From: a phage
Direction: 5' to 3' (one strand)
Sequence record: PZ445515.1
DNA: 64,000 bases
The notes beneath the pieces are model-generated. The model saw only the letters and a program-made list of their open reading frames with translations, searched no databases and was not told the DNA's origin. A program made the translations under genes and the position numbers. Position 1 is the first letter of the stretch; each line of letters opens with the position of its first letter. Positions 3,699 through 39,809 of the stretch are shown piece after piece.

Positions 3699-3912
3699 TT
3701 TTCACCTGTTCTCTGAAGTTTTGCCCAATACTGTCTAATAGCTCAGCTAATTCTTTATTGCCTTTCTCCATTAAGGTATTAGCAATAACTTCTAGCATAG
3801 TAGCGCAGGATTCAACACCATCCTTATAGCCAGTTTCCCAGTGCTGCATTAATGCGTTTTCCAAAGCAGCGTTTAAACCCTTATCTGGTAGCATCGGCTT
3901 CGAGAATGCCAT
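3691..3912 (-). CDS. hypothetical protein
   Basis: 73 aa ORF in operon-like array, start/stop overlap with neighbours. Confidence 0.45.
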   Translation of the reverse strand: MAFSKPMLPDKGLNAALENALMQHWETGYKDGVESCATMLEVIANTLMEKGNKELAELLDSIGQNFREQVKNA

Positions 3913-4105
3913 AAAGTTTCTCCTCTAGTTCCATGATACGATTTTCATAAGAGGCACGCAACTTTTCAATTGCCAGCGCACGCACTGTAACCTCATTAGA
4001 ATTAATAGCTAATTGGGCCAGATCTTCCGTTTCCATACGTCCGTTGTAAATTAAGCGATATTTAAGGTGTTTTACATTCTTAGTCATTATTAAACTCCAC
4101 TGCAA
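3881..4105 (-). CDS. hypothetical protein
   Basis: 74 aa ORF, coiled-coil-like, overlaps neighbours. Confidence 0.45.
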   Translation of the reverse strand: MQWSLIMTKNVKHLKYRLIYNGRMETEDLAQLAINSNEVTVRALAIEKLRASYENRIMELEEKLYGILEADATR

Positions 4106-4460
4106 CTGTTTCTAGGTCTTCGTCAGAAAAACTAGAGTATATATCTTTAAGATACTGTTTAATACTCCAAGTAATATCTTCGTACCCATTGGGGCTACGT
4201 TGGTATACTTTTAACACTCTATTATACACAAATTCAAGATTACATTTTACTTCATCTCTGTCTTCATCAAACAAGCAATATGGATTATAAGGTGATACAT
4301 CTAGATTTGTTCCCACCCAATCGCCAATAATGGTAGGGTATGCAACACCCTCTATATGCGAGTAATCACCTGTGGCAGCAAAGACAGCCTCAGCAATATC
4401 ATCCACACCCAGATGGAAACCACCACAAGTAGATTCAACTATATAGGGCTTTAATTCCAT
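4080..4460 (-). CDS. hypothetical protein
   Basis: 126 aa ORF downstream of nrdD; no radical-SAM CxxxCxxC so not NrdG. Confidence 0.5.
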   Translation of the reverse strand: MELKPYIVESTCGGFHLGVDDIAEAVFAATGDYSHIEGVAYPTIIGDWVGTNLDVSPYNPYCLFDEDRDEVKCNLEFVYNRVLKVYQRSPNGYEDITWSIKQYLKDIYSSFSDEDLETVAVEFNND

Positions 4461-4528
4461 ATCTTTCTCCTCTCAAATTTATAAATCTATTATATATAAA
4501 TTTTTGGCTGAAAGCAAATAAAATAAAA

Positions 4529-4553
4529 GCCAGGTCGACTAGCAACCCGGCTG
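4529..4553 (-). terminator. putative rho-independent terminator after nrdD
   Basis: Imperfect hairpin agccagg/cccggct followed on minus strand by T-run. Confidence 0.35.
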
Positions 4554-4559
4554 ATTAGC

Positions 4560-6434
4560 TTATTTAGCTCGAATATCCTGATGTTTCACCCTGCCCATAA
4601 CCTCATGCTGTTTGCCTGGGTTAAATGGACGAGCACCTGGATTTCCAAGATACCCACAAACTCGACGAGTTACTTCAAGAGTTTCGGGGTCGTGATTACC
4701 ACAGATAGGGCACTTAAACCCGTCTTCGGATGCTATTGTTTCACCTAAGAATCCACATTTACCACAAGAATCTACTGGAGTATTAATACCGAAGTAATGA
4801 ACCTTACTAGCAGCATAATTAATAACCCATTCCAGTGCATCTGGGAATCGTTTCATATCCGGTAGTTCTACATAGGAAATACATCCACCAGAAGCAATAG
4901 GAGTAAAGTTAGATTCATAATCAAATTTCACATTGGGAGCAACTTTACGTTCTACATCAAGGTGGTGCGAGTTAGTGTAGTATCCTTTAGACAGAATATC
5001 TTCATGCTCTGGGAAATATTCACGGTCTAGACGACAAAAACGGTCACATAGGGATTCTGATGGTGTAGCATACAGGCTATAACCTAACTTAGTTTCTTCC
5101 TTCTTCTGATCGACTCTATCCCGCATGTACTGCAATACACGCTGAACAAACTTGATGCAGGTCTCGGACATTGTGTCTACATCTTTGCCAAACATGAACT
5201 GTAGCATTTCATGGCAACCAATATACCCTAGAGATACAGAAGCACGGTTATAGAAATGATCGAATACATATTCATCAGGCTCCAAGCGCAGTCCAAAGGC
5301 TCCTGACATATAGAGGATGGGCGCAGCTTTAGCTTGAATGTATTTTAAGCGATCAACTCTCCACTCCAATGCTTTTAACGCTGTATCCACACGTAGCTCA
5401 AGTAAATCAAAGAATAGGTCAATATTTCCTTCAGCTTCGATAGCAATTCTAGGCAAGTTTACAGAAACAACACCTAAGTTATTACGACCGGCAGTTTCAC
5501 CATCTTCTGTAGCAGCTAAGAATGAACGGCAGCCCATAGAAACTTTATAGTCACCAGTAACTTCCACAACCTTATCATAGCTGATATAATCTGGATACAT
5601 ACGTTCAGCAGTACATTTCATAGCTAACTTCTTGATGTCATAATTAACATCTCCTGGTTTCATGTTAACGCCATCACGAAGTACAAATACCAGTTTCGGG
5701 AAGATAGCTGTACGTTTATTGATACCTAAGCCATCCATGCGTACTTTCAGTATTGCTTTCTGTACTAGACGTGCTTCCCAAGAAGTTCCTAGACCAAAAC
5801 CAAAGGTAATAAATGGACTCTGACCATTAGAGTTGAACATGGTATTGATTTCATATTCTAGACCCTGACAGGCATCATAAACTTCTTTTTCAGTCATCTC
5901 CGTAGCCATTACTGATGCTTTGGCCTCATCTTTAGTCCAACGTTTTGCAAACGCATGATTTTTGTCATAGGATTTACGAACATAAGGAGCTAATACTTCA
6001 TCAAGGCGATCCACGGAAGTACCACCATACTGATGGGAGCTAACCTGTGTGATAATCTGAGCTGTAATAGCTGCCGCAGTAGTGATAGAGTTTGGAGTGC
6101 TAATTTCAGCATTACCAACCTTCATACCATTCTTCAACATATCTTCCAGAGCTACCAGACAACAATTAGTCATGCCTAATGCAGCATAATCAGCATCATG
6201 GAAATGAATATCCCCAATCATATGAGCATTTCGAATCTGAATTGGCATTTCTTCTAGAATCAGATACTTACTCAATTCACCTGCAAGCATATCCCTCTGT
6301 GTAGGGAAACGTTCTGAGGGTTTATTGGCATTATTAAACAGCAGCTCTTCATCTGCTGACCCTTCGATAATCTCTTTGCAGTTTCTAATTAACGCCTGCA
6401 TTTCTTTATACTTTAGTTCTTCATTGCGATTCAT
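4560..6434 (-). CDS. nrdD: anaerobic ribonucleoside-triphosphate reductase (class III)
   Basis: 624 aa; C-terminal glycyl-radical motif RVCGYLG, Cys-rich C-terminus, overall NrdD-like. Confidence 0.9.
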   Translation of the reverse strand: MNRNEELKYKEMQALIRNCKEIIEGSADEELLFNNANKPSERFPTQRDMLAGELSKYLILEEMPIQIRNAHMIGDIHFHDADYAALGMTNCCLVALEDMLKNGMKVGNAEISTPNSITTAAAITAQIITQVSSHQYGGTSVDRLDEVLAPYVRKSYDKNHAFAKRWTKDEAKASVMATEMTEKEVYDACQGLEYEINTMFNSNGQSPFITFGFGLGTSWEARLVQKAILKVRMDGLGINKRTAIFPKLVFVLRDGVNMKPGDVNYDIKKLAMKCTAERMYPDYISYDKVVEVTGDYKVSMGCRSFLAATEDGETAGRNNLGVVSVNLPRIAIEAEGNIDLFFDLLELRVDTALKALEWRVDRLKYIQAKAAPILYMSGAFGLRLEPDEYVFDHFYNRASVSLGYIGCHEMLQFMFGKDVDTMSETCIKFVQRVLQYMRDRVDQKKEETKLGYSLYATPSESLCDRFCRLDREYFPEHEDILSKGYYTNSHHLDVERKVAPNVKFDYESNFTPIASGGCISYVELPDMKRFPDALEWVINYAASKVHYFGINTPVDSCGKCGFLGETIASEDGFKCPICGNHDPETLEVTRRVCGYLGNPGARPFNPGKQHEVMGRVKHQDIRAK

Positions 6435-6684
6435 TATACTCTCCTTCTCTAACTAAGACTACTATTATAACTCATTCGAGGGCGGATGTCAACAATATTT
6501 TACTATAAAGTTCTGTAACATGATCTGAGTCAAAAAATTTTATTTGCCAATCTCTATTAAAAATTGTATAATCACGCACTCGTGCACGCGATATAAAATG
6601 ATTATCTAGTATCACACATCTCACGTTAAAAGCAAGCAAATTTTTTATTTAAATGCAATATCATAGGCTTATTTAAAATTGTAG

Positions 6685-6713
6685 TTGCTTTTTACTGTAT
6701 ATATTGGTATAAT
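6685..6713 (+). promoter_or_regulatory. sigma70-type early promoter
   Basis: TTGCTT -35, 17 bp spacer, TATAAT -10. Confidence 0.55.
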
Positions 6714-6786
6714 ATATTTGTAAGTTGATAAACAAGATCTTTTTGTTGATCCTCTGTTAGCGAAGTACACTATAGGAGTGTTATTT

Positions 6787-7539
6787 ATGGGAAAAGCACG
6801 TCAAAAAAGAGAGAACCGCAATGGTTCAAGAAAGCGTGGCAACAAGTATGAGAATAACGTAATTCAGGCTGATTTTTCTAATGATTACGCTAACCCAGTT
6901 GCTAAATCCCTAGTAGGTAAAAACCGCGAGCAAAAATCATATATCAATATGATCAAGAACAACACAGTGACTGTGGGCATCGGTGAGCCAGGTACTGGTA
7001 AAACCTTTATTCCGTCCGTTCTTGCAGCTCAGGAACTCGTAGACATTCACTCAGATATTGAGCAAGTGATCCTCGTACGTCCTAATGAACCTCTAGGTAA
7101 GTCTCTTGGTATGCTTCCTGGTGATCTAGCAGAAAAGCTAGAGCCTTGGTTGGAGCCAATAGCTGATGGTATGAAATGGGCCATCGGCGATCATGCCTAT
7201 AAGGGATATGTCGAACGTCAGAAAATTAAATTTTTGGCTGTCGAACATGCTCGTGGCAGAACTTTCAACAACTCCTATGTAATTGTCGATGAAGCTCAGA
7301 ATATTTCCGTTGAGGCAATGATTTGTCTTCTAACTCGTGTAGGGCAAGACTGCCGTTTAATTATCTGCGGAGATATAGCTCAGAAAGACATTAAAGGTGA
7401 CTCAGGTCTAGCACTCCTTATGGAAGTCTATGAGAAATACGAAAATGCCCCATTCTCAATGATCGAATTGATTGATAACGTTCGTTCTGTTGAGTCTAAA
7501 GCATTCTATGACATCTTTAAAGACATGGGGAAGGTGTAA
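6787..7539 (+). CDS. phoH: PhoH-like ATPase
   Basis: Walker A GEPGTGKTF and DEAQN Walker B; ATG at 6787 after GGAG. Confidence 0.85.
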   Translation: MGKARQKRENRNGSRKRGNKYENNVIQADFSNDYANPVAKSLVGKNREQKSYINMIKNNTVTVGIGEPGTGKTFIPSVLAAQELVDIHSDIEQVILVRPNEPLGKSLGMLPGDLAEKLEPWLEPIADGMKWAIGDHAYKGYVERQKIKFLAVEHARGRTFNNSYVIVDEAQNISVEAMICLLTRVGQDCRLIICGDIAQKDIKGDSGLALLMEVYEKYENAPFSMIELIDNVRSVESKAFYDIFKDMGKV

Positions 7540-7540
7540 T

Positions 7541-7762
7541 ATGGGAAACGTCGTTCATCTGAGCCGTAAAACTAAAATACATCGTACTTCACTGAGTGCT
7601 GCTAATATGATTACACGTAAGGAAGGGGAAGAAAGTCCTAAGACAACCCTAGCGTGGAAAATTGTAACCTCAAATCCAAATAAACCATTCAATTATAACG
7701 AGTTGAGCACCTCCATAGATATTCTATTAAAAGAAGTAGCTAGAACTAAAGTAATTGAATAA
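7541..7762 (+). CDS. hypothetical protein
   Basis: 73 aa ORF, ATG immediately after phoH stop. Confidence 0.45.
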   Translation: MGNVVHLSRKTKIHRTSLSAANMITRKEGEESPKTTLAWKIVTSNPNKPFNYNELSTSIDILLKEVARTKVIE

Positions 7763-7904
7763 GCTAAAAAGCTAGACTGGTAATATACAGGGCCTGGGTA
7801 TGAAAATACTCGGGCCTTTTCTATCAGAAAATTTTATTTGCCTAATGACCGATAATAAAGTAGAATATTCCTTAAATCCTGATAACTATAAAAAGGAAAG
7901 CCAA

Positions 7905-20387: not shown

Positions 20388-21335
20388 ATGTTTGCTACTA
20401 AAAATATGAAAGAACTGACTTCTGAGCAGAAAGTAATTCGTACTATTAAACGTTGGGGTATTGGTGCTGTAGTTGGTTTAGCAGGTTTAATCCTAGCTTT
20501 TAATTCATATACTATTGTTTCTGATGGTACGGTTAAAACCCAAACATTCCTGGGTAAAGTAGACCCTAATCCAGTATTGCCGGGCTTCCATCTTGTAAAC
20601 CCGTTTGCATCTTTCGATACTTTTAGTACAAAAGATATTGCTGTAAAATTAGATAAACTTCAGGTTCCTAGCCAGGATAAGTTTAAATCCACTGTTGACC
20701 TGACTGTTATGTTGCAGTTTGATGGTTCTAAAGCACCGATTAACCGTATTAACGCAGGTACTCAGGATCAGGCACTAGACAAGTATGTAACTGAAAAATT
20801 ACTGTCTACTATTCGTGAGTTTGGTAAGTCTGTACCTAAAGCACAAGATTTATTTGATGCTAAAATTCAGGCTCAATTGCAAACTGCAATTCAACAGGAA
20901 GTTGAAGAGTATGCGCGCCCATATGGTTACACAGTTAAGCAGGTATTCCTTCAGGATATTACCTTGCCGCCAGTAATCATGGAACAGGTACAGAATACCA
21001 AAGTTCGTGAAGAGCAAGTTAATGCTGCGAAAGCTGAACTTGCTCGCGTTGAACAGGAAGCACAGCAAAAAGTTAAACAAGCAGAAGCAGATCGTGAAGC
21101 TCGTAACAACCAAGCTATTGCTAATGAACGTGACGCAGATGCTAAACTGTACGCAGCTAAGAAAGAAGCTGAAGCTAACGCCGCATTGCAACGTACCATT
21201 ACTCCTGAAATGATTCGTTGGAAACAACTGGAAGTTGAAATGATCCGTGCTCAGAAGTATCAAGGTGGTGTACCTCAGACTGTGGTAGGTACTGGCTACG
21301 ATGGTCAAATGATCATGGATATGCGTAACAAGTAA
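20388..21335 (+). CDS. SPFH/band-7 (prohibitin/HflC-like) membrane protein
   Basis: 315 aa; N-terminal TM helix, SPFH-like core, C-terminal A/E/Q-rich coiled coil. Confidence 0.55.
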   Translation: MFATKNMKELTSEQKVIRTIKRWGIGAVVGLAGLILAFNSYTIVSDGTVKTQTFLGKVDPNPVLPGFHLVNPFASFDTFSTKDIAVKLDKLQVPSQDKFKSTVDLTVMLQFDGSKAPINRINAGTQDQALDKYVTEKLLSTIREFGKSVPKAQDLFDAKIQAQLQTAIQQEVEEYARPYGYTVKQVFLQDITLPPVIMEQVQNTKVREEQVNAAKAELARVEQEAQQKVKQAEADREARNNQAIANERDADAKLYAAKKEAEANAALQRTITPEMIRWKQLEVEMIRAQKYQGGVPQTVVGTGYDGQMIMDMRNK

Positions 21336-21358: not shown

Positions 21359-21394
21359 AAGCCCGCGTTTCCTACGAGAGCGCGGGCTTTTCTG
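21359..21394 (+). terminator. rho-independent terminator
   Basis: Hairpin gcccgcg...cgcgggc followed by TTTTCTG. Confidence 0.7.
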
Positions 21395-21411
21395 TATTTA
21401 AGGCAAAAGAA

Positions 21412-21447
21412 AAAGCCCCTTACCTTTCGGCAGGGGCTTTTGTTTTT
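21412..21447 (+). terminator. bidirectional rho-independent terminator
   Basis: Hairpin agcccct...aggggct flanked by A-run upstream and T-run downstream; between convergent genes. Confidence 0.65.
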
Positions 21448-21654
21448 GGTTTAGAACCATACTCTCGGTGTACAGCAACCACCCATACGGGAGGCCAATC
21501 TTGACTGAAAATCTACTCTAGGGGGCAGGATAAGAGTAGGCTTAAAGGCAAAGGGATTGAACGCCGGTATTTGCGTAAACATTGCTGGAGAGCAACAACG
21601 TGCTACAGGCACTGGGCAGCACGAAACAGATTTTCTGCAACACATATTTCCTCC

Positions 21655-22071
21655 TTAGGAGTTACTACCCCCATTTTGAGCTTTTGCAACTTGGCTTTGG
21701 CAGAAGCTATTAAACTTACCCATAAGTGATACAAGCTGTTTCCCATCCTCTGTCTTTGCGAAGTCTTCGAAAAGGGCTAGTACTGCCTGTCCTTCCGCAG
21801 AAACCTGCGGTTGTTGGGTTTGTTGCTGAACTTGCTGCTGAGGCACCTGTTGCTGCATTTGTTGAGGCATTTGCGACTGCCCGCTCATTTGCTGCATCAT
21901 TTGCATAGGACTCACACTTCCAGGGTTTTGCTGGAGTTGTTGCTGCATCTGTTGCGCTTCTGCTAAACGCTGTTGCAACTGTTGTAAGTAGGGGTTATCC
22001 AGACCCGGAATGGGCTGCTGGGAGCCCATACTTTGATTAAGTCCGTTATTTACAAAACCATATTTACTCAT
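21655..22071 (-). CDS. glutamine-rich low-complexity protein
   Basis: 138 aa; central Q-rich tract QQMQQQLQQ...QQVQQQTQQPQ; opposite strand to neighbours. Confidence 0.5.
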   Translation of the reverse strand: MSKYGFVNNGLNQSMGSQQPIPGLDNPYLQQLQQRLAEAQQMQQQLQQNPGSVSPMQMMQQMSGQSQMPQQMQQQVPQQQVQQQTQQPQVSAEGQAVLALFEDFAKTEDGKQLVSLMGKFNSFCQSQVAKAQNGGSNS

Positions 22072-22092
22072 AATGGGCTCCTCCCCTTAATA

Positions 22093-23082
22093 TTAAGCCG
22101 GCAGTTTAGCCTGCAGACCAGCCAGAGTCTGAGTGATAGCACCAAGACTTAAAGCGATTTGATTAATTACCTGACCGTTAGCACCGCTACCCGCAGCGAT
22201 TGCTTCACGTAGGCGACATGCGTCTAACTCATCCTGGATACGCGCAGTAGTTACACCAGCGATCGCAGTCTGAAGTTCACAGCAACATTCAGCGATCTGA
22301 CGTTCCAGAGAGTTCTGGTTAGCACACATCTGAGCCTGAACAGCGGCAAACTGGTTATTAGTTTGTAAAGTCTGCTGGAAAGCGATCTGTGCAGAATCAA
22401 ACTTATCTTGTGCACGAGCTATCTGGTTAGCTGCGAAAGATTGATCAATCTGGCGAGAAAGATCGAACTGACCCTGAATAACGTTGCGAGTTTCCTGGCA
22501 GATCTGATTAGACAGATTAGCACCTGTACCGTAGATCGTAGTTAGTACAGACTGAGTATCACGGCTCTGGTTTTGGGTTGTCTGGCTAAAACCATTGTTA
22601 ACTGCGCTTAAAACAGCTCCAGTACCCTGGTTAGCCTCTGTACGAGTAGTGTTGATAGCTGCTAGAATACTAGCGGTATCTTGGTTCTGAAGTACTGCAT
22701 CAACTGCGGTACCTTCACCAACTACACCACGTCCACCGAATCCACCGAAACCACCGAATCCGCCGGTTAATAGAGCACCGATTAGGATAGCTCCGAATAG
22801 TCCCATACCTTCACCACCGAAAGCACCTGCGTTTGCTGGGTAACCACCCAGTAGGCCAGGGAAGCCACTAGTGAATACGTTTACTGGTTCTTGCATTTTA
22901 TGTTTTCCATATTTATGACAATGTTCATCATCGTCATCTTCTTCTTCATCATCGTGTTCACGATGTTTTTCTTCGTAGGCTCTGACCTTCTCCCACTTTT
23001 TCTTATCTGATTCCTCGTGACGGTGCAGTTCTGCTGCAACGCTAGCGACGGTCTCAGGACTCTTAGCTACTTCTTCTGTCAT
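22093..23082 (-). CDS. low-complexity protein (acidic tract, Gly-rich repeat, Q/N/T/A-rich domain)
   Basis: Start at internal ATG 23082 with AGGAGG RBS; EEEDDDDEH, GGFGGFGGFGG, then long Q/N/A-rich region. Confidence 0.5.
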   Translation of the reverse strand: MTEEVAKSPETVASVAAELHRHEESDKKKWEKVRAYEEKHREHDDEEEDDDDEHCHKYGKHKMQEPVNVFTSGFPGLLGGYPANAGAFGGEGMGLFGAILIGALLTGGFGGFGGFGGRGVVGEGTAVDAVLQNQDTASILAAINTTRTEANQGTGAVLSAVNNGFSQTTQNQSRDTQSVLTTIYGTGANLSNQICQETRNVIQGQFDLSRQIDQSFAANQIARAQDKFDSAQIAFQQTLQTNNQFAAVQAQMCANQNSLERQIAECCCELQTAIAGVTTARIQDELDACRLREAIAAGSGANGQVINQIALSLGAITQTLAGLQAKLPA

Positions 23083-23289
23083 ATTTTGACACCTCCTAGT
23101 ATATAGAAAATGTGTGTCTCTTTGATCACTCATCCATAACATATACTTTACACTACCCCAGCGAAAATGTCAAGGGGTCTTTAAAAATTGCCCCCGGATT
23201 TTTAGTGGGGTCACAAATTTTGGTCCTCCCCACTTATCTGCTACCCTTAAGTGCCCTATGATTTTCCTCTAAAAAGTTAAAAAATTTGA

Positions 23290-23318
23290 TTGCTTGAATG
23301 CTAAATTCTCTGTATAAT
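23290..23318 (+). promoter_or_regulatory. T5-type early promoter
   Basis: TTGCTT -35, 17 bp, TATAAT -10. Confidence 0.6.
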
Positions 23319-23348
23319 ATATCTATAAATTTGAGAGAGGAACCAAAT

Positions 23349-23867
23349 ATGAATGTTGATGAGCTAACACAGCACCTCTTATCCAGAGGATTTGATACAG
23401 ATAAATATCATTGCTGGTTAAGTCCGGAAGGATGGCTAACAGTCCCGTTGTATGACTTCTCCGGGATGTTGCGAGGCTATCAGACGTATAATCCTTCTGC
23501 TCCAAAAGGTCATGGTAAGTGTCCCTTTGAAGCTAAATATTTTACTTATTCTACTACCCAGTGTGTATGGGGACTAGAAACTCTCAATGGAGATGAAAAA
23601 GTAGTATTGATCGCTGAATCTGTATTTAAGGCAGTTGCGCTACATAACGCTGGTTATCCAGCCCTGGCAATGTTAGGTTCTTCTCCAGGAAAAGCGTTAT
23701 TAAAGCAACTGAAATTATTACCTTTTAAATTGGTAGCTGTCGGAGACAACGATCCTGCGGGTGAAAAATTTGCTAGAAAATTAAACGGCTTTGTTTCTCC
23801 CGTAGATGTGGATGAGATGTCTACCGAAAACTTGAAAAATTTTCTTGCTATGAAGCTAAATTTCTAA
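23349..23867 (+). CDS. hypothetical protein with Toprim-like motif
   Basis: 172 aa from ATG 23349; VVLIAESVFKAV...VGDNDPAGEKFA resembles Toprim fold; tentative. Confidence 0.35.
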   Translation: MNVDELTQHLLSRGFDTDKYHCWLSPEGWLTVPLYDFSGMLRGYQTYNPSAPKGHGKCPFEAKYFTYSTTQCVWGLETLNGDEKVVLIAESVFKAVALHNAGYPALAMLGSSPGKALLKQLKLLPFKLVAVGDNDPAGEKFARKLNGFVSPVDVDEMSTENLKNFLAMKLNF

Positions 23868-39392: not shown

Positions 39393-39809
39393 ATGTTTGC
39401 AGAACTATTCACTATGATGCTGCTAGGTATCTGGAAAATAAGTCTAGTAGTATTCGTTTTAATGATAGTCTTTACTATCATTGCATTAACTACCCGAAAT
39501 AGCTTATTAATAAAGGTTATTCACGGACTAGAGTATATAATTATGGGTTCATTCGGCGTTTGTAAATGCAATTGCCATAGAGATACGAAATATTGTTGGT
39601 TATGGATGGAACTAGAGAATCCTATATCCATAGCTTTGGCTGTTTCATTCGGTATGATTCTTATGGCCCTTACTCTAGCATTAATACCTTTGATGTTAGC
39701 TGGGGGAGTTACAGCGTATTTCACCCTTTTCTCCCCGATACTTATGTACTCAATTTACCCAATAACTATGTATCTAGTTAGGAAAAAATTTATACATGCA
39801 GTAGATTAA
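39393..39809 (+). CDS. hypothetical membrane protein
   Basis: 138 aa, several hydrophobic segments. Confidence 0.5.
   Translation: MFAELFTMMLLGIWKISLVVFVLMIVFTIIALTTRNSLLIKVIHGLEYIIMGSFGVCKCNCHRDTKYCWLWMELENPISIALAVSFGMILMALTLALIPLMLAGGVTAYFTLFSPILMYSIYPITMYLVRKKFIHAVD

What the first reader, a model, noticed from the sequence alone, without database searches (positions are those of the whole stretch)
21655..23082. Opposite-strand pair of low-complexity proteins isolated by terminators inside the tRNA island
Two minus-strand genes sit between bidirectional terminators (21359-21447) and a plus-strand promoter (23290). One is a Q-rich 138-aa protein; the other starts with an acidic EEEDDDDEH tract, then GGFGGFGGFGG repeats, then a long Q/N/T/A-rich region. 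The composition resembles prion-like or phase-separating proteins or structural filament proteins and is unlike everything else in the early region.
Basis: seen in the sequence. Interest (0 to 1): 0.5.

Follow-up and report, generated by a model that had tools for sequence, protein, structure and literature searches.

The report
Accessory phage operon: membrane-anchored helical rod
The two odd-looking genes are real and form a dispensable three-gene operon of T5-like phages (T5.077, T5.078, T5.079); its main product is predicted to be a membrane-anchored, roughly 23-nm helical rod from a widespread, uncharacterised, phage-only family, not a prion-like or virion protein.

Summary
The window is a T5-like phage. 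The finding corresponds to T5.077 (329 aa) and T5.078 (138 aa). The operon lies on the minus strand with its own sigma-70-type promoter (T5 "P12") and a bidirectional terminator.

The composition is a genuine outlier, and both proteins are under purifying selection.

- **GGFGGFGG tract:** it is the tail of a glycine-rich hydrophobic anchor.
- **Q/N/T/A region of T5.077:** it is a conserved, confidently predicted helix of about 153 residues with an invariant Cys-Cys-Cys motif.
- **Q-rich tract of T5.078:** it is a variable linker between conserved ends.

A profile search shows that T5.077 belongs to a family found almost only in phage and viral contigs. The family covers PHROGs 8119, 9288 and 16490, none with a characterised member or Pfam model. 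It recurs next to Q/M-rich small proteins.

The operon is missing from many relatives and lies inside the viable T5st0 deletion. Its products were not among the BF23 virion proteins.

My best reading is an accessory, inner-membrane-tethered rod complex that acts in the infected cell. Exclusion or counter-defence is the most likely role, but the function is unproven. Homology to φX174 H, spanins and prion-like domains was tested and not found.

The parts
23145..23173 (-). Operon promoter-like site, TTGACA-17 nt-TAAAGT (10 of 12 matches); equivalent to T5 promoter P12.
   Evidence: scan. One search shows T5 annotating promoter P12 directly upstream of T5.077.
22093..23082 (-). Gene 1, the T5.077 homologue (329 aa, PHROG 8119). 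Layout: N-terminal helix, acidic/His tract, Gly-rich hydrophobic anchor, long helix with CCC motif.
   Evidence: dN/dS is 0.16-0.20.
22951..23049 (-). Residues 12-44: N-terminal amphipathic helix, confidently predicted (pLDDT about 90-96). It is present only in the T5-like long forms.
   Evidence: alignment.
22897..22962 (-). Residues 41-62: acidic/His tract (HREHDDEEEDDDDEHCHKYGKHK). It varies in length and becomes poly-His in relatives (HHYHHHHHEH...).
22732..22809 (-). Residues 92-117: Gly-rich hydrophobic anchor GMGLFGAILIGALLTGGFGGFGGFGG.
   Evidence: Kyte-Doolittle 1.72. One search finds a comparable segment in 52 of 72 family members. One search shows the conserved G/L positions.
22105..22680 (-). 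Residues 135-326: helical rod domain, made of helix 135-169 and one continuous helix 174-326 (about 153 residues, about 23 nm).
   Evidence: AlphaFold2 with a 72-sequence alignment; pLDDT 82-94 for residues 180-290. One search gives a hydrophobic period of 3.6-3.68.
22279..22287 (-). Codons TGT TGC TGT = Cys266-Cys267-Cys268, the invariant family signature.
   Evidence: 60 of 72 family members carry CCC..
21655..22071 (-). Gene 2, the T5.078 homologue (138 aa, PHROG 7894). It has a conserved N-terminal helix, a variable Q/M/P-rich linker (about residues 41-88, nt 21808-21951) and a near-invariant C-terminal domain (about residues 89-131, nt 21679-21807). No signal peptide.
   Evidence: dN/dS is 0.08-0.32.
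21451..21645 (-). Gene 3, the T5.079 homologue (64 aa; 8 Cys as four CC doublets; Pro/Phe-rich) with its own TAAGGAGG Shine-Dalgarno sequence. The DNA is unusually conserved.
   Evidence: One search gives dS 0.04-0.22 against 0.5-1.3 in neighbouring genes. One search finds a positional counterpart, a 69-aa 'MCC...' ORF, in the distant relative L004.
21407..21440 (.). Bidirectional intrinsic terminator hairpin that ends the operon.
   Evidence: hairpin plus U-run on the minus-strand RNA. Searches (T5 annotation; BB1 annotation).
21359..21389 (+). Terminator of the convergent SPFH gene. It contains the GCGC (21380-21383) that corresponds to the T5 32.6% major nick site.

Best explanation
This is a self-contained, dispensable three-gene accessory operon of T5-like phages. 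It is transcribed against the flow of the early region from its own sigma-70-type promoter and ends at a bidirectional terminator.

Gene 1 encodes a protein tethered to the host inner membrane by a glycine-rich hydrophobic segment. It carries a roughly 23-nm alpha-helical rod whose one invariant feature is a Cys-Cys-Cys motif. I infer that the rod oligomerises and that the CCC layer staples or metal-bridges the chains. The rod most likely lies on the cytoplasmic face.

Genes 2 and 3 encode small cytoplasmic partners. One has a Q/M-rich flexible linker joining two conserved helical modules. The other is a 64-aa protein rich in Cys-Cys doublets.

The complex acts in the infected cell, not in the virion, as an optional envelope-associated device. 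The role I consider most likely is competition or defence related: excluding superinfecting phage DNA, or neutralising a membrane-associated host defence.

Shown: gene reality, operon anatomy, family membership, predicted architecture, dispensability and absence from virions.
Inferred: oligomerisation, topology, partnership of the three products, and the biological role.
For: Real, selected genes.
- dN/dS is 0.16-0.20 for gene 1 and 0.08-0.32 for gene 2.
- The gene pair, plus a third small 'MCC' ORF, is kept in a relative with only 43% protein identity.

Operon anatomy.
- Promoter. Terminator.

Accessory status.
- The operon is absent from phage misterkot, where the SPFH gene and its terminator remain.
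- No equivalent genes appear in the Bas33 gene table.
- It is present in IrmaTschudi and GSW6 next to an extra NadR/PnuC insert.
- Only 218 of 400 related records cover at least 80% of the locus.
- It lies inside the T5st0 deletion.

Not in virions.
- The BF23 virion proteome lists 18 proteins and none corresponds to these products. BF23 encodes the gene 2 homologue.

Architecture.
- Hydrophobic anchor. Long helix. Invariant CCC.

Family distribution.
- The profile search found 187 representative proteins at E<=1e-3 and 30 at E<=1e-10.
- IMG/VR yielded 129 loci. The 185,579 reference bacterial and archaeal genomes yielded one, a 2-kb MAG contig. The family therefore looks tied to phage genomes rather than to prophages or hosts.

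Cytoplasmic-side hints.
- K/R residues flanking the anchor average 0.37 on the N side and 1.1 on the C side.
- At least 10 of 72 family members have no hydrophobic segment or signal peptide at all.
- Genes 2 and 3 have no signal peptides.

Partnership hint.
- Q/M-rich small ORFs are about 46-fold enriched within 1.5 kb of family genes: 24 of 66 distinct loci near, 2 far, Poisson P about 1e-41.

Cassette mobility.
- Family cassettes sit at moron-like positions, after tail-fibre genes or between terL and portal. Exclusion genes are typically found in such places.
Against: - No family member has a known function, and no Pfam, PDB or fold match exists. The role is inferred from architecture and context only.
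- Topology is unresolved. The T5-like proteins carry a 90-residue charged N-terminal domain that is unlikely to be exported. With a single membrane span, that would place the rod in the periplasm, contrary to the charge bias seen in the short forms.
- The hydrophobic core is short; AlphaFold2 predicts a helix only for residues 96-106. It may be a monotopic or hairpin anchor, or an oligomerisation core, rather than a membrane span.
- The gene 2 profile shows no detectable homology to the Q/M-rich neighbours elsewhere (hhalign probability 1%; HMM search). That association is compositional only.
- I found no expression data. The only RNA-seq table examined is from a phage that lacks the operon.
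- Genomic contexts of the family are heterogeneous.
- The family is scarce in sequenced bacterial genomes, so it differs from classical prophage exclusion genes.
Confidence: 0.35

Rival explanations
1. Periplasm-spanning rod, with the N terminus inside and the C terminus outside. The anchor would sit in the inner membrane and the 23-nm helix bundle would cross the periplasm. The weakly hydrophobic C-terminal segment would contact the outer membrane, and the CCC motif would form interchain disulfides. The device would work like a φX174 H tube or a spanin. It would serve either as a plug or decoy that blocks incoming phage DNA, or as an accessory lysis or envelope-fusion device.
For: - The charged 90-residue N-terminal domain of the T5-like forms is unlikely to be translocated.
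- The helix length of about 153 residues, roughly 23 nm, is close to the width of the periplasm.
- A second mildly hydrophobic segment lies at residues 305-323 (Kyte-Doolittle 1.3).
- Length and composition are almost identical to φX174 H: 329 against 328 aa, A 13.1/14.0%, G 10.6/11.0%, Q 9.4/8.2%, N 5.5/5.5%, with a Gly-rich hydrophobic segment followed by an amide-rich helix.
- Adjacent cysteines are a typical interchain knot in an oxidising compartment. This point rests on general knowledge.
Against: - No homology to φX174 H (hhalign probability 0.1%; PDB profile search).
- No lipoprotein partner and no lipobox in genes 2 or 3, and the operon is not in a lysis cassette.
- The operon is dispensable for plaque formation, since it is deleted in T5st0.
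- The charge bias in the short forms favours a cytoplasmic C terminus, and some family members have no anchor or signal peptide.
- The partner proteins are cytoplasmic.
Confidence: 0.2
2. Metal- or redox-handling module. The acidic/poly-His tract, the CCC layer in the rod and the CC-doublet protein would bind or buffer a thiophilic or His-binding metal (Zn, Ni, Cu) at the membrane, or would sense redox state during infection.
For: - His-rich acidic tracts occur in gene 1, reaching HHYHHHHHEH...EHEHH in relatives.
- Similar D/E plus poly-His tracts occur on the second protein (PHROG 9157) of the related four-gene cassette.
- The CCC motif is invariant.
- Gene 3 has 8 Cys in 64 aa, arranged as four CC doublets.
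- A ferritin-like neighbour is seen in 10 locus groups, at a sub-threshold Pfam E-value of 0.02.
Against: - All of this evidence is compositional. hhalign finds no homology between the His-tract proteins.
- No known metal-binding domain is detected.
- Cys-rich small ORFs are not enriched near family genes in general.
- The His tract is short in this window's version.
Confidence: 0.1
3. One reading: prion-like or phase-separating low-complexity proteins that form condensates or amyloid-like assemblies in the infected cell.
For: - Gene 2 is 27.5% Q, with a roughly 50-residue Q/M/P tract.
- Gene 1 contains GLFG/GGFG motifs and a Q/N-rich sequence.
- Q/M-rich partners recur beside family genes.
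- Some Q/M-rich partners give weak, sub-threshold hits to the STI1/UBA/TAP_C type of small helical domain.
Against: - The Q tract is the least conserved part of gene 2 and is deleted in distant homologues.
- The Q/N-rich region of gene 1 is a conserved, confidently predicted helix with invariant residues under purifying selection.
- The FG-like motifs belong to a hydrophobic anchor conserved across the family.
Confidence: 0.07
4. Virion-associated accessory component, such as a fibre, whisker or ejection/pilot protein. In other phages it would be encoded next to tail-fibre genes and would be optional in T5.
For: - Family genes often follow tail or tail-fibre genes.
- The commonest downstream neighbour, in 28 of 66 locus groups, is a BclA_C/TNF-like protein, at a sub-threshold Pfam E-value of 7e-4.
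- Some records label the homologue 'lateral tail fiber chaperone' or 'sugar-binding protein'.
- The family is restricted to phage genomes.
- The architecture resembles φX174 H.
Against: - The products were not detected in BF23 virions.
- The operon is deleted in the viable strain T5st0.
- In T5-like phages the operon sits in the early region under a host-type promoter, away from the late operons.
- Cassette positions vary, for example between terL and portal.
- The record labels are unverified predictions.
Confidence: 0.06

Closest known systems
φX174 protein H (Microviridae DNA pilot protein; coiled-coil tube, PDB 4JPP)
   Same: - Nearly the same length (328 against 329 aa) and amino-acid composition.
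- A glycine-rich hydrophobic segment is followed by a long amide-rich (Q/N/T/A) helix.
- A weakly hydrophobic C-terminal end is present.
- The hydrophobic period is closer to 11/3 than 7/2 in part of the helix. From my own knowledge, the right-handed half of the H tube shows the same tendency.
   Different: - No detectable homology.
- H has no cysteines, whereas this family is defined by CCC.
- H is an essential virion protein. These products are dispensable and were not found in BF23 virions.
- In the T5-like forms the anchor is internal, behind a 90-residue N-terminal domain.
Phage spanins (λ Rz/Rz1 type i-/o-spanin; T1 gp11 u-spanin)
   Same: - A membrane anchor plus an elongated helical domain bearing cysteines that could form interchain disulfides.
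- Encoded by phages of Gram-negative hosts.
   Different: - No lipoprotein partner or lipobox.
- Not adjacent to a holin or endolysin gene.
- The operon is dispensable.
- Some family members lack any anchor.
- No PHROG or Pfam spanin match.
Phage superinfection-exclusion or receptor-blocking genes (T4 Imm and Sp, P22 SieA, HK97 gp15, T5 Llp, T1/φ80 Cor)
   Same: - Small accessory units with their own transcription signals.
- A membrane-associated product.
- Presence/absence polymorphism among close relatives.
- Family cassettes often lie beside tail-fibre or receptor-binding genes.
   Different: - No sequence relationship.
- A three-protein operon with a 23-nm rod is far more elaborate than the known examples.
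- The family is almost absent from bacterial genomes and prophages.
- No phenotype is known.
Uncharacterised PHROG families 8119, 9288 and 16490; four-gene cassette 9288/9157/8329/7239 of Drexlerviridae, Queuovirinae, Eiauvirus and Nonanavirus
   Same: - True homologues: a Gly-rich anchor, a Q/N/S/T/A-rich helical domain, and the invariant CCC followed by an 'ATRALI'-type motif.
- Cassette-like, mobile and of unknown function.
   Different: - The T5-like proteins carry an extra N-terminal helix and an acidic/His tract.
- The partner genes differ: a Q-rich 138-aa protein and a Cys-rich 64-aa protein, instead of PHROGs 9157, 8329 and 7239.

Membership tests
CCC-helix phage family (PHROG 8119, related to 9288 and 16490; no characterised member) | Significant profile similarity over the anchor plus helical domain | tested here: met
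   PHROG 8119 matches at E = 8e-205. The profile search found 187 representative proteins at E<=1e-3 and 30 at E<=1e-10. Distant members hit PHROGs 8119, 9288 and 16490.
CCC-helix phage family (PHROG 8119, related to 9288 and 16490; no characterised member) | Invariant Cys-Cys-Cys inside the long helix | tested here: met
   C266-C268 are invariant in alignment A1. CCC is present in 60 of 72 family sequences and is invariant in alignment A5.
CCC-helix phage family (PHROG 8119, related to 9288 and 16490; no characterised member) | Gly-rich hydrophobic segment N-terminal to the helix | tested here: met
   Kyte-Doolittle 1.72 at residues 94-112. A comparable segment occurs in 52 of 72 members.
Spanin (i-/o-spanin pair or u-spanin) | Partner or embedded outer-membrane lipoprotein gene with a lipobox, or a lipobox on the protein itself | tested here: not met
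   Genes 2 and 3 have no signal peptide or lipobox (sequences). ORFs embedded in gene 1 show no lipobox signal.
Spanin (i-/o-spanin pair or u-spanin) | Location in a lysis cassette and requirement for lysis | tested here: not met
   The flanking genes are an SPFH gene and a Toprim/primase-like gene. The operon lies inside the deletion of the viable strain T5st0.
Spanin (i-/o-spanin pair or u-spanin) | Inner-membrane anchor with a periplasmic coiled coil | tested here: inconclusive
   An anchor and a long helix are predicted. The side of the membrane is unresolved, and the charge bias in the short forms favours a cytoplasmic C terminus.
φX174 H-type DNA pilot protein | Sequence or profile homology to protein H | tested here: not met
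   hhalign probability is 0.1%. The PDB profile search gave no hit at E<=1 to 4JPP or to anything relevant.
φX174 H-type DNA pilot protein | Gly-rich membrane segment plus a long amide-rich helix | tested here: met
   This is a resemblance in architecture and composition only.
φX174 H-type DNA pilot protein | Component of the virion | tested here: not met
   The products are not among the 18 proteins of BF23 virions (PMC10644984). The operon is dispensable in T5st0.
Prion-like or phase-separating low-complexity proteins | A long, disordered, compositionally biased region that is the functional core, conserved in composition rather than sequence | tested here: not met
   Gene 1: the Q/N-rich region is a conserved helix with pLDDT 82-94. 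Gene 2: the Q tract is the variable, deletable part, and the conserved parts are the flanking helical modules. Both genes are under purifying selection.
Superinfection-exclusion or receptor-blocking genes | Homology to a known exclusion protein (Imm, Sp, SieA, gp15, Llp, Cor) | tested here: not met
   No Pfam or PHROG match to any such family.
Superinfection-exclusion or receptor-blocking genes | Exclusion phenotype when expressed | not testable with these tools
   This needs plating and DNA-entry assays on cells that express the operon.
Autonomous accessory ('moron-like') cassette | Own promoter and terminator, and presence/absence polymorphism between close relatives | tested here: met
   Promoter. 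Terminator. Absent in misterkot and from the Bas33 table. Present in T5, BB1, HdH2, IrmaTschudi and GSW6.
Autonomous accessory ('moron-like') cassette | Expression from a prophage for the benefit of the host | tested here: not met
   Carrier phages are virulent. Only one hit, a MAG contig, was found among 185,579 reference genomes.

The most novel reading that the evidence does not exclude
The CCC-helix family is a previously unrecognised class of phage-encoded multi-helix rods or tubes. They would be anchored in the cell membrane, analogous to the φX174 H tube but unrelated to it. Interchain Cys-Cys-Cys knots or metal sites would hold them together, and dedicated Q/M-rich chaperone-like partners would assemble them. 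Virulent phages as different as T5-like, T1-like, queuosine-modifying, crAss-like and uncultured soil and gut phages would deploy them inside infected cells. The purpose would be to gate or block passage of DNA or ions through the envelope. That would make them a new mechanism of superinfection exclusion, lysis control or counter-defence.
Probability: 0.15. Interest if true: 0.75.

Novelty: new variant of a known kind. Interest (0 to 1): 0.42.

Why it matters
T5 is a classic model phage, yet this operon has been annotated only as three hypothetical proteins since 2004. This analysis links it to a large, almost phage-exclusive protein family that has a sharply defined signature: a glycine-rich anchor, a helix of about 150 residues, and an invariant CCC. 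The family has no Pfam model, no solved structure and no characterised member.

The family travels as small mobile cassettes in many well-studied coliphage groups, including Drexlerviridae, Queuovirinae and Demerecviridae. Genetics is therefore easy. Natural carriers and non-carriers exist, and wild-type T5 and T5st0 already form a carrier/non-carrier pair, although st0 removes other genes too.

If the rod proves to be an exclusion, lysis-control or anti-defence device, it would add a new mechanism to phage-host and phage-phage conflict. If not, the result still retires the prion or phase-separation idea and gives annotators a usable family definition.

Tried and rejected
- **Pfam, PHROG and PDB sequence searches** on both proteins and their profiles. 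These returned only unknown-function PHROGs and no solved relatives.
- **AlphaFold2 with a shallow alignment** (19 sequences). pLDDT was 50 and the model was unusable. A 72-sequence alignment gave a usable helical model.
- **Foldseek against PDB and BFVD.** No match was significant (best E 2.7 and 0.26); the hits were generic long helices. The third fold-search job was not used, because a single long helix carries no fold information.
- **Expression data.** The Bas33 RNA-seq supplement (PMC13250531) lists no minus-strand genes of the right size in the tRNA region, so Bas33 lacks the operon. Two guessed BASEL accession numbers fetched unrelated phages. The φR2-01 proteogenomics paper describes no minus-strand block in the equivalent region.
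- **Homology of gene 2 to the Q/M-rich neighbours** of distant family genes. Rejected: the HMM finds none and hhalign probability is 1%. Only the compositional association holds.
- **Homology between the His/acidic N terminus of gene 1 and PHROG 9157 proteins.** Rejected.
- **Homology to φX174 H.** Rejected.
- **Small Cys-rich ORFs as a general partner of the family.** Not enriched.
- **Gene 3 as a pure non-coding RNA.** Rfam has nothing above threshold, and the sense strand folds only moderately better than shuffles (z = -2.0). A positional 'MCC' ORF with a Shine-Dalgarno sequence in a diverged relative argues for coding. The low dS remains unexplained.
- **Functional coupling to the neighbouring SPFH gene** (NfeD-like partner). 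Rejected: misterkot keeps the SPFH gene without the operon.
- **Canonical heptad coiled coil.** The hydrophobic period is 3.6-3.68, and the signal is weak: 52 of 500 shuffles reach it.
- **Literature search for T5.077, T5.078 and T5.079.** No papers were found.
Full report
**What the window is.** The 2-kb locus is 98-100% identical to many Tequintavirus genomes (SUT_E420, T5_ev212, EC148, BB1). It matches 400 phage records in total, almost all Salmonella and Escherichia T5-like phages. In the T5 reference record the two genes are T5.077 and T5.078. They are followed by T5.079, preceded by 'promoter P12', and ended by an 'efficient bidirectional rho-independent transcription terminator' (BB1 annotation). 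The locus lies between tRNA-Arg and tRNA-Ser of a 21-tRNA island. A convergent SPFH/Band 7 gene (Pfam E = 2e-17) and a divergent Toprim/primase-like gene flank it.

**Checking the observation.** Both ORFs are present as described. The 138-aa protein is the most Q-rich and the lowest-entropy product among 63 long ORFs in the window. The two proteins rank first and second for Q+N+T+A+G+S content. A sigma-70-like site, TTGACA-17-TAAAGT, lies at 23173-23145 on the minus strand. This makes 23082 (MTEEV, behind AGGAGG) the real start, rather than the upstream ATG at 23142. The first terminator hairpin (21359-21389) serves the SPFH gene. The second (about 21407-21440) is followed by a U-run on the minus-strand RNA.

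**The third gene.** ORF 21451-21645 (64 aa: MCCRKSVSCCPVPVARCCSPA...GGCC...) has a conserved TAAGGAGG Shine-Dalgarno sequence and is intact in all eight relatives compared. Its DNA is more conserved than that of its neighbours: 92% identity where genes 1 and 2 show 78-85%. Its synonymous divergence is five- to ten-fold lower (dS 0.04-0.22 against 0.5-1.3), which gives dN/dS of 0.5-1.3. That pattern alone would suggest an RNA or DNA element. The sense strand also folds somewhat better than shuffled sequence (z = -2.0 for 195 nt, -3.3 with the terminator), while the antisense strand does not (z = -0.7). Rfam has nothing above threshold. However, a distant relative (L004, 43% identity in gene 1) keeps a 69-aa ORF at the same position. 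It has a Shine-Dalgarno sequence, starts with 'MCC' and has a second CC doublet, despite no nucleotide similarity. I therefore treat gene 3 as coding, with an unexplained extra constraint on its nucleotide sequence.

**Are genes 1 and 2 real proteins?** Yes. dN/dS is 0.16-0.20 for gene 1 and 0.08-0.32 for gene 2, compared with 0.02-0.08 for the SPFH gene. Both have homologues only in T5-like phages when searched directly: 26 and 116 clusters respectively. The pair is syntenic in relatives down to 43% identity.

**Anatomy of gene 2.** The alignment shows three parts:
- a conserved N terminus with a helix (NPYLQQLQQRLAEAQ);
- a Q/M/P-rich stretch whose length varies and which is largely missing in distant homologues;
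- a near-invariant C-terminal domain of about 45 residues (VSAEGQAVLALFEDFAKTEDGKQLVS.MGKFNS.CQS).

The protein has no hydrophobic segment or signal peptide.

**Anatomy of gene 1.** The alignment and hydropathy analysis give the following layout:
- a conserved N-terminal helix;
- a variable acidic/His tract, which becomes poly-His in some relatives;
- a conserved MQEPVNVFTNGFPG motif;
- a glycine-rich hydrophobic segment, GMGLFGAILIGALLTGGFGGFGGFGG (Kyte-Doolittle 1.72);
- about 200 residues rich in Q/N/T/A, with an invariant CCC (266-268).

A first AlphaFold2 run with 19 sequences was poor. With 72 family sequences the mean pLDDT rose to 72. That model predicts helix 12-44 (pLDDT above 90), a short helix in the anchor, helix 135-169, and one uninterrupted helix 174-326, with pLDDT 82-94 over residues 180-290. 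One hundred and fifty-three helical residues correspond to about 23 nm. The hydrophobic period is 3.6-3.68 rather than 3.5, but the signal is weak. The short-form homologues show a 33-residue (3 x 11) GRD...GRD repeat. Foldseek finds only insignificant long-helix matches, and profile searches of PDB sequences find nothing.

**The wider family.** An exhaustive profile search of 1.84 billion representative proteins found 187 hits at E<=1e-3 and 30 at E<=1e-10.
- Most hits are proteins of about 250 aa. They have a short N-terminal tail, the same Gly-rich hydrophobic segment, a Q/N/S/T/A-rich helical region with motifs such as NFTTLSSINGLGRD and LNSFN, the invariant CCC, and a DG.ATRALI motif.
- CCC is present in 60 of 72 sequences. 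A clear hydrophobic segment is present in 52 of 72. At least ten have no hydrophobic segment at all.
- The hits fall into PHROGs 8119, 9288 and 16490, all of unknown function, and match no Pfam family.
- A scan of one genome for each of 185,579 bacterial and archaeal species found one locus, on a 2-kb MAG contig. IMG/VR gave 129 loci.
- In annotated phages, PHROG 9288 homologues occur in 177 records. These include Queuovirinae (CAjan, JenK1), Drexlerviridae (KarlJaspers, pSf-1), Eiauvirus and Nonanavirus.
- There they head a four-gene cassette (PHROGs 9288/9157/8329/7239). Its position differs between lineages: after lateral tail-fibre genes, after tail genes, or between terL and portal.
- A decayed copy lies after a fibre gene in the T5-like phage polluks.

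**Neighbours.** I clustered the ORFs around 66 distinct family genes. The recurrent neighbours were:
- a 144-aa protein directly downstream in 28 groups, with a sub-threshold BclA_C match (E = 7e-4);
- a 145-aa protein with a Q/P/M-rich N terminus and a beta-rich domain in 24 groups (PHROG 21718);
- a 98-aa beta-rich protein in 23 groups;
- DUF7841 in 15 groups;
- a ferritin-like protein in 10 groups (E = 0.02, sub-threshold);
- Q/M-rich proteins of about 73 aa immediately upstream in 19 groups.

Q/M-rich ORFs are about 46-fold enriched within 1.5 kb of family genes. However, they show no detectable homology to gene 2. The association is real but compositional. Broader contexts are mixed, covering tail fibres, crAss-type capsid genes, lysins and DNA metabolism. 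That pattern fits an autonomous cassette.

**Dispensability and location of the products.**
- The operon is absent from Epseptimavirus misterkot, although the SPFH gene and its terminator remain.
- It is present in IrmaTschudi and GSW6 beside an extra NadR/PnuC insert.
- No genes of matching size and strand appear in the Bas33 gene table.
- In T5st0, the viable heat-stable deletion mutant, the deletion joins T5p066 to T5p079. This removes T5.068 to T5.081 and hence the whole operon and the SPFH gene.
- LC-MS/MS of BF23 virions identified 18 proteins and none corresponds to these products (PMC10644984). BF23 encodes the gene 2 homologue.

The products are therefore non-essential, and a virion role is unlikely.

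**Which side of the membrane?** The evidence conflicts.
- In the family, K/R residues flanking the hydrophobic segment average 0.37 on the N side and 1.1 on the C side.
- Anchor-less members have no signal peptide.
- Both partner proteins are cytoplasmic.

These three points favour a cytoplasmic rod. Against that, the T5-like proteins have a charged 90-residue N-terminal domain that is unlikely to cross the membrane. With a single span, this would put the rod in the periplasm. A hairpin or monotopic anchor would reconcile the two observations, because AlphaFold2 sees only an 11-residue helix in the anchor and a weakly hydrophobic conserved stretch precedes it. I rank the cytoplasmic-face model first and the periplasm-spanning model second.

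**Comparison with known systems.**
- **φX174 protein H** is the closest architectural analogue. Length and composition are almost identical, and a Gly-rich hydrophobic segment is followed by an amide-rich helix. But hhalign probability is 0.1%. H also has no cysteines and is an essential virion protein.
- **Spanins** share the plan of an anchor plus a helical rod plus cysteines. But there is no lipoprotein partner, no lysis-cassette context, and no requirement for growth.
- **Known exclusion proteins** share the accessory, membrane-associated, polymorphic character and, for family cassettes, the position next to fibre genes. They show no homology.
- **The prion-like reading** fails on conservation and predicted structure.

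**Verdict.** It describes a real, already annotated but functionally unknown three-gene accessory operon.

The interpretation as prion-like, phase-separating or structural proteins is largely not supported.

The most defensible model is an inner-membrane-tethered, probably oligomeric helical rod with two small partners. It would act in the infected cell in a non-essential role, probably related to competition or defence. Confidence is about 0.35 for the whole statement, higher for the architecture and lower for the role.

The family it belongs to is widespread, phage-restricted and uncharacterised. That makes it a reasonable target for experiments, but not a demonstrated novelty.

Noticed in passing
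window 21451-21645 (minus strand): The T5.079 ORF region is conserved far more strongly at the nucleotide level than its neighbours: 92% against 78-85% identity, and dS 0.04-0.22 against 0.5-1.3. Its sense strand folds moderately better than shuffled sequence. This suggests an RNA- or DNA-level constraint, such as a stable 3'-UTR structure, superimposed on a small coding gene.
   Followed up: partly
window 21359-21389 (GCGC at 21380-21383): The terminator hairpin of the SPFH gene contains the GCGC that corresponds to the T5 '32.6% major single-chain interruption' annotated at 39746/7 in NC_005859. The genomic nick therefore sits inside a terminator stem between two convergent transcription units.
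   Followed up: no
window 20388-21335 (+): This is an SPFH/Band 7 (prohibitin/flotillin-like) membrane protein gene (Pfam E = 2e-17), labelled 'lipoprotein' in several records. It converges on the operon. It is retained in phage misterkot, which lacks the operon, so the two are independent.
   Followed up: partly
window 23298-23867 (+): The mechanical ORF starts at 23298, inside the promoter (TTGCTT-17-TATAAT, -10 hexamer at 23313-23318). The credible start of this Toprim/primase-like gene (T5.076 homologue, 172 aa) is the ATG at 23349.
   Followed up: partly
L016 (IrmaTschudi) 4208 onward, L017 (GSW6) 4268 onward, L005 (misterkot) 3760-5494: Epseptimaviruses carry a NadR-like nicotinamide-nucleotide adenylyltransferase gene plus a PnuC transporter gene inserted at the same inter-tRNA locus, with or without the 077-079 operon. 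The site is a hotspot for accessory cargo.
   Followed up: no
L101 (Salmonella phage polluks) 3752-4342: A decayed PHROG 9288-type CCC gene is split into 123-aa and 67-aa ORFs, with 'KYCCE' in place of CCC. It lies directly after the 661-aa fibre gene at the end of the tail operon of a T5-like phage.
   Followed up: partly
L100 (KarlJaspers) 4815-6639; L010 (eiAU) 5839-7693; L102 (PJ16) 4842-6711: A conserved four-gene cassette (PHROGs 9288/9157/8329/7239, all of unknown function) is inserted at different genome positions in Drexlerviridae, Eiauvirus, Queuovirinae and Nonanavirus. In PJ16 it lies between terL and portal. Its second protein has a D/E plus poly-His N-terminal tract and a weak, sub-threshold MazG/PRA-PH-like C terminus.
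   Followed up: partly
L103 (T5st0, AY692264) 7668-7847: The st0 deletion junction, a 10-bp repeat, removes T5.068 to T5.081. This includes several tRNAs, the Toprim gene, the 077-079 operon and the SPFH gene, so all are dispensable in the laboratory.
   Followed up: yes
L004 7520-7600 (minus strand): In the distant T5-like relative, a tRNA-like sequence on the opposite strand lies immediately after the operon's terminator. The operon's placement inside the tRNA island is therefore conserved even at 43% protein identity.
   Followed up: no
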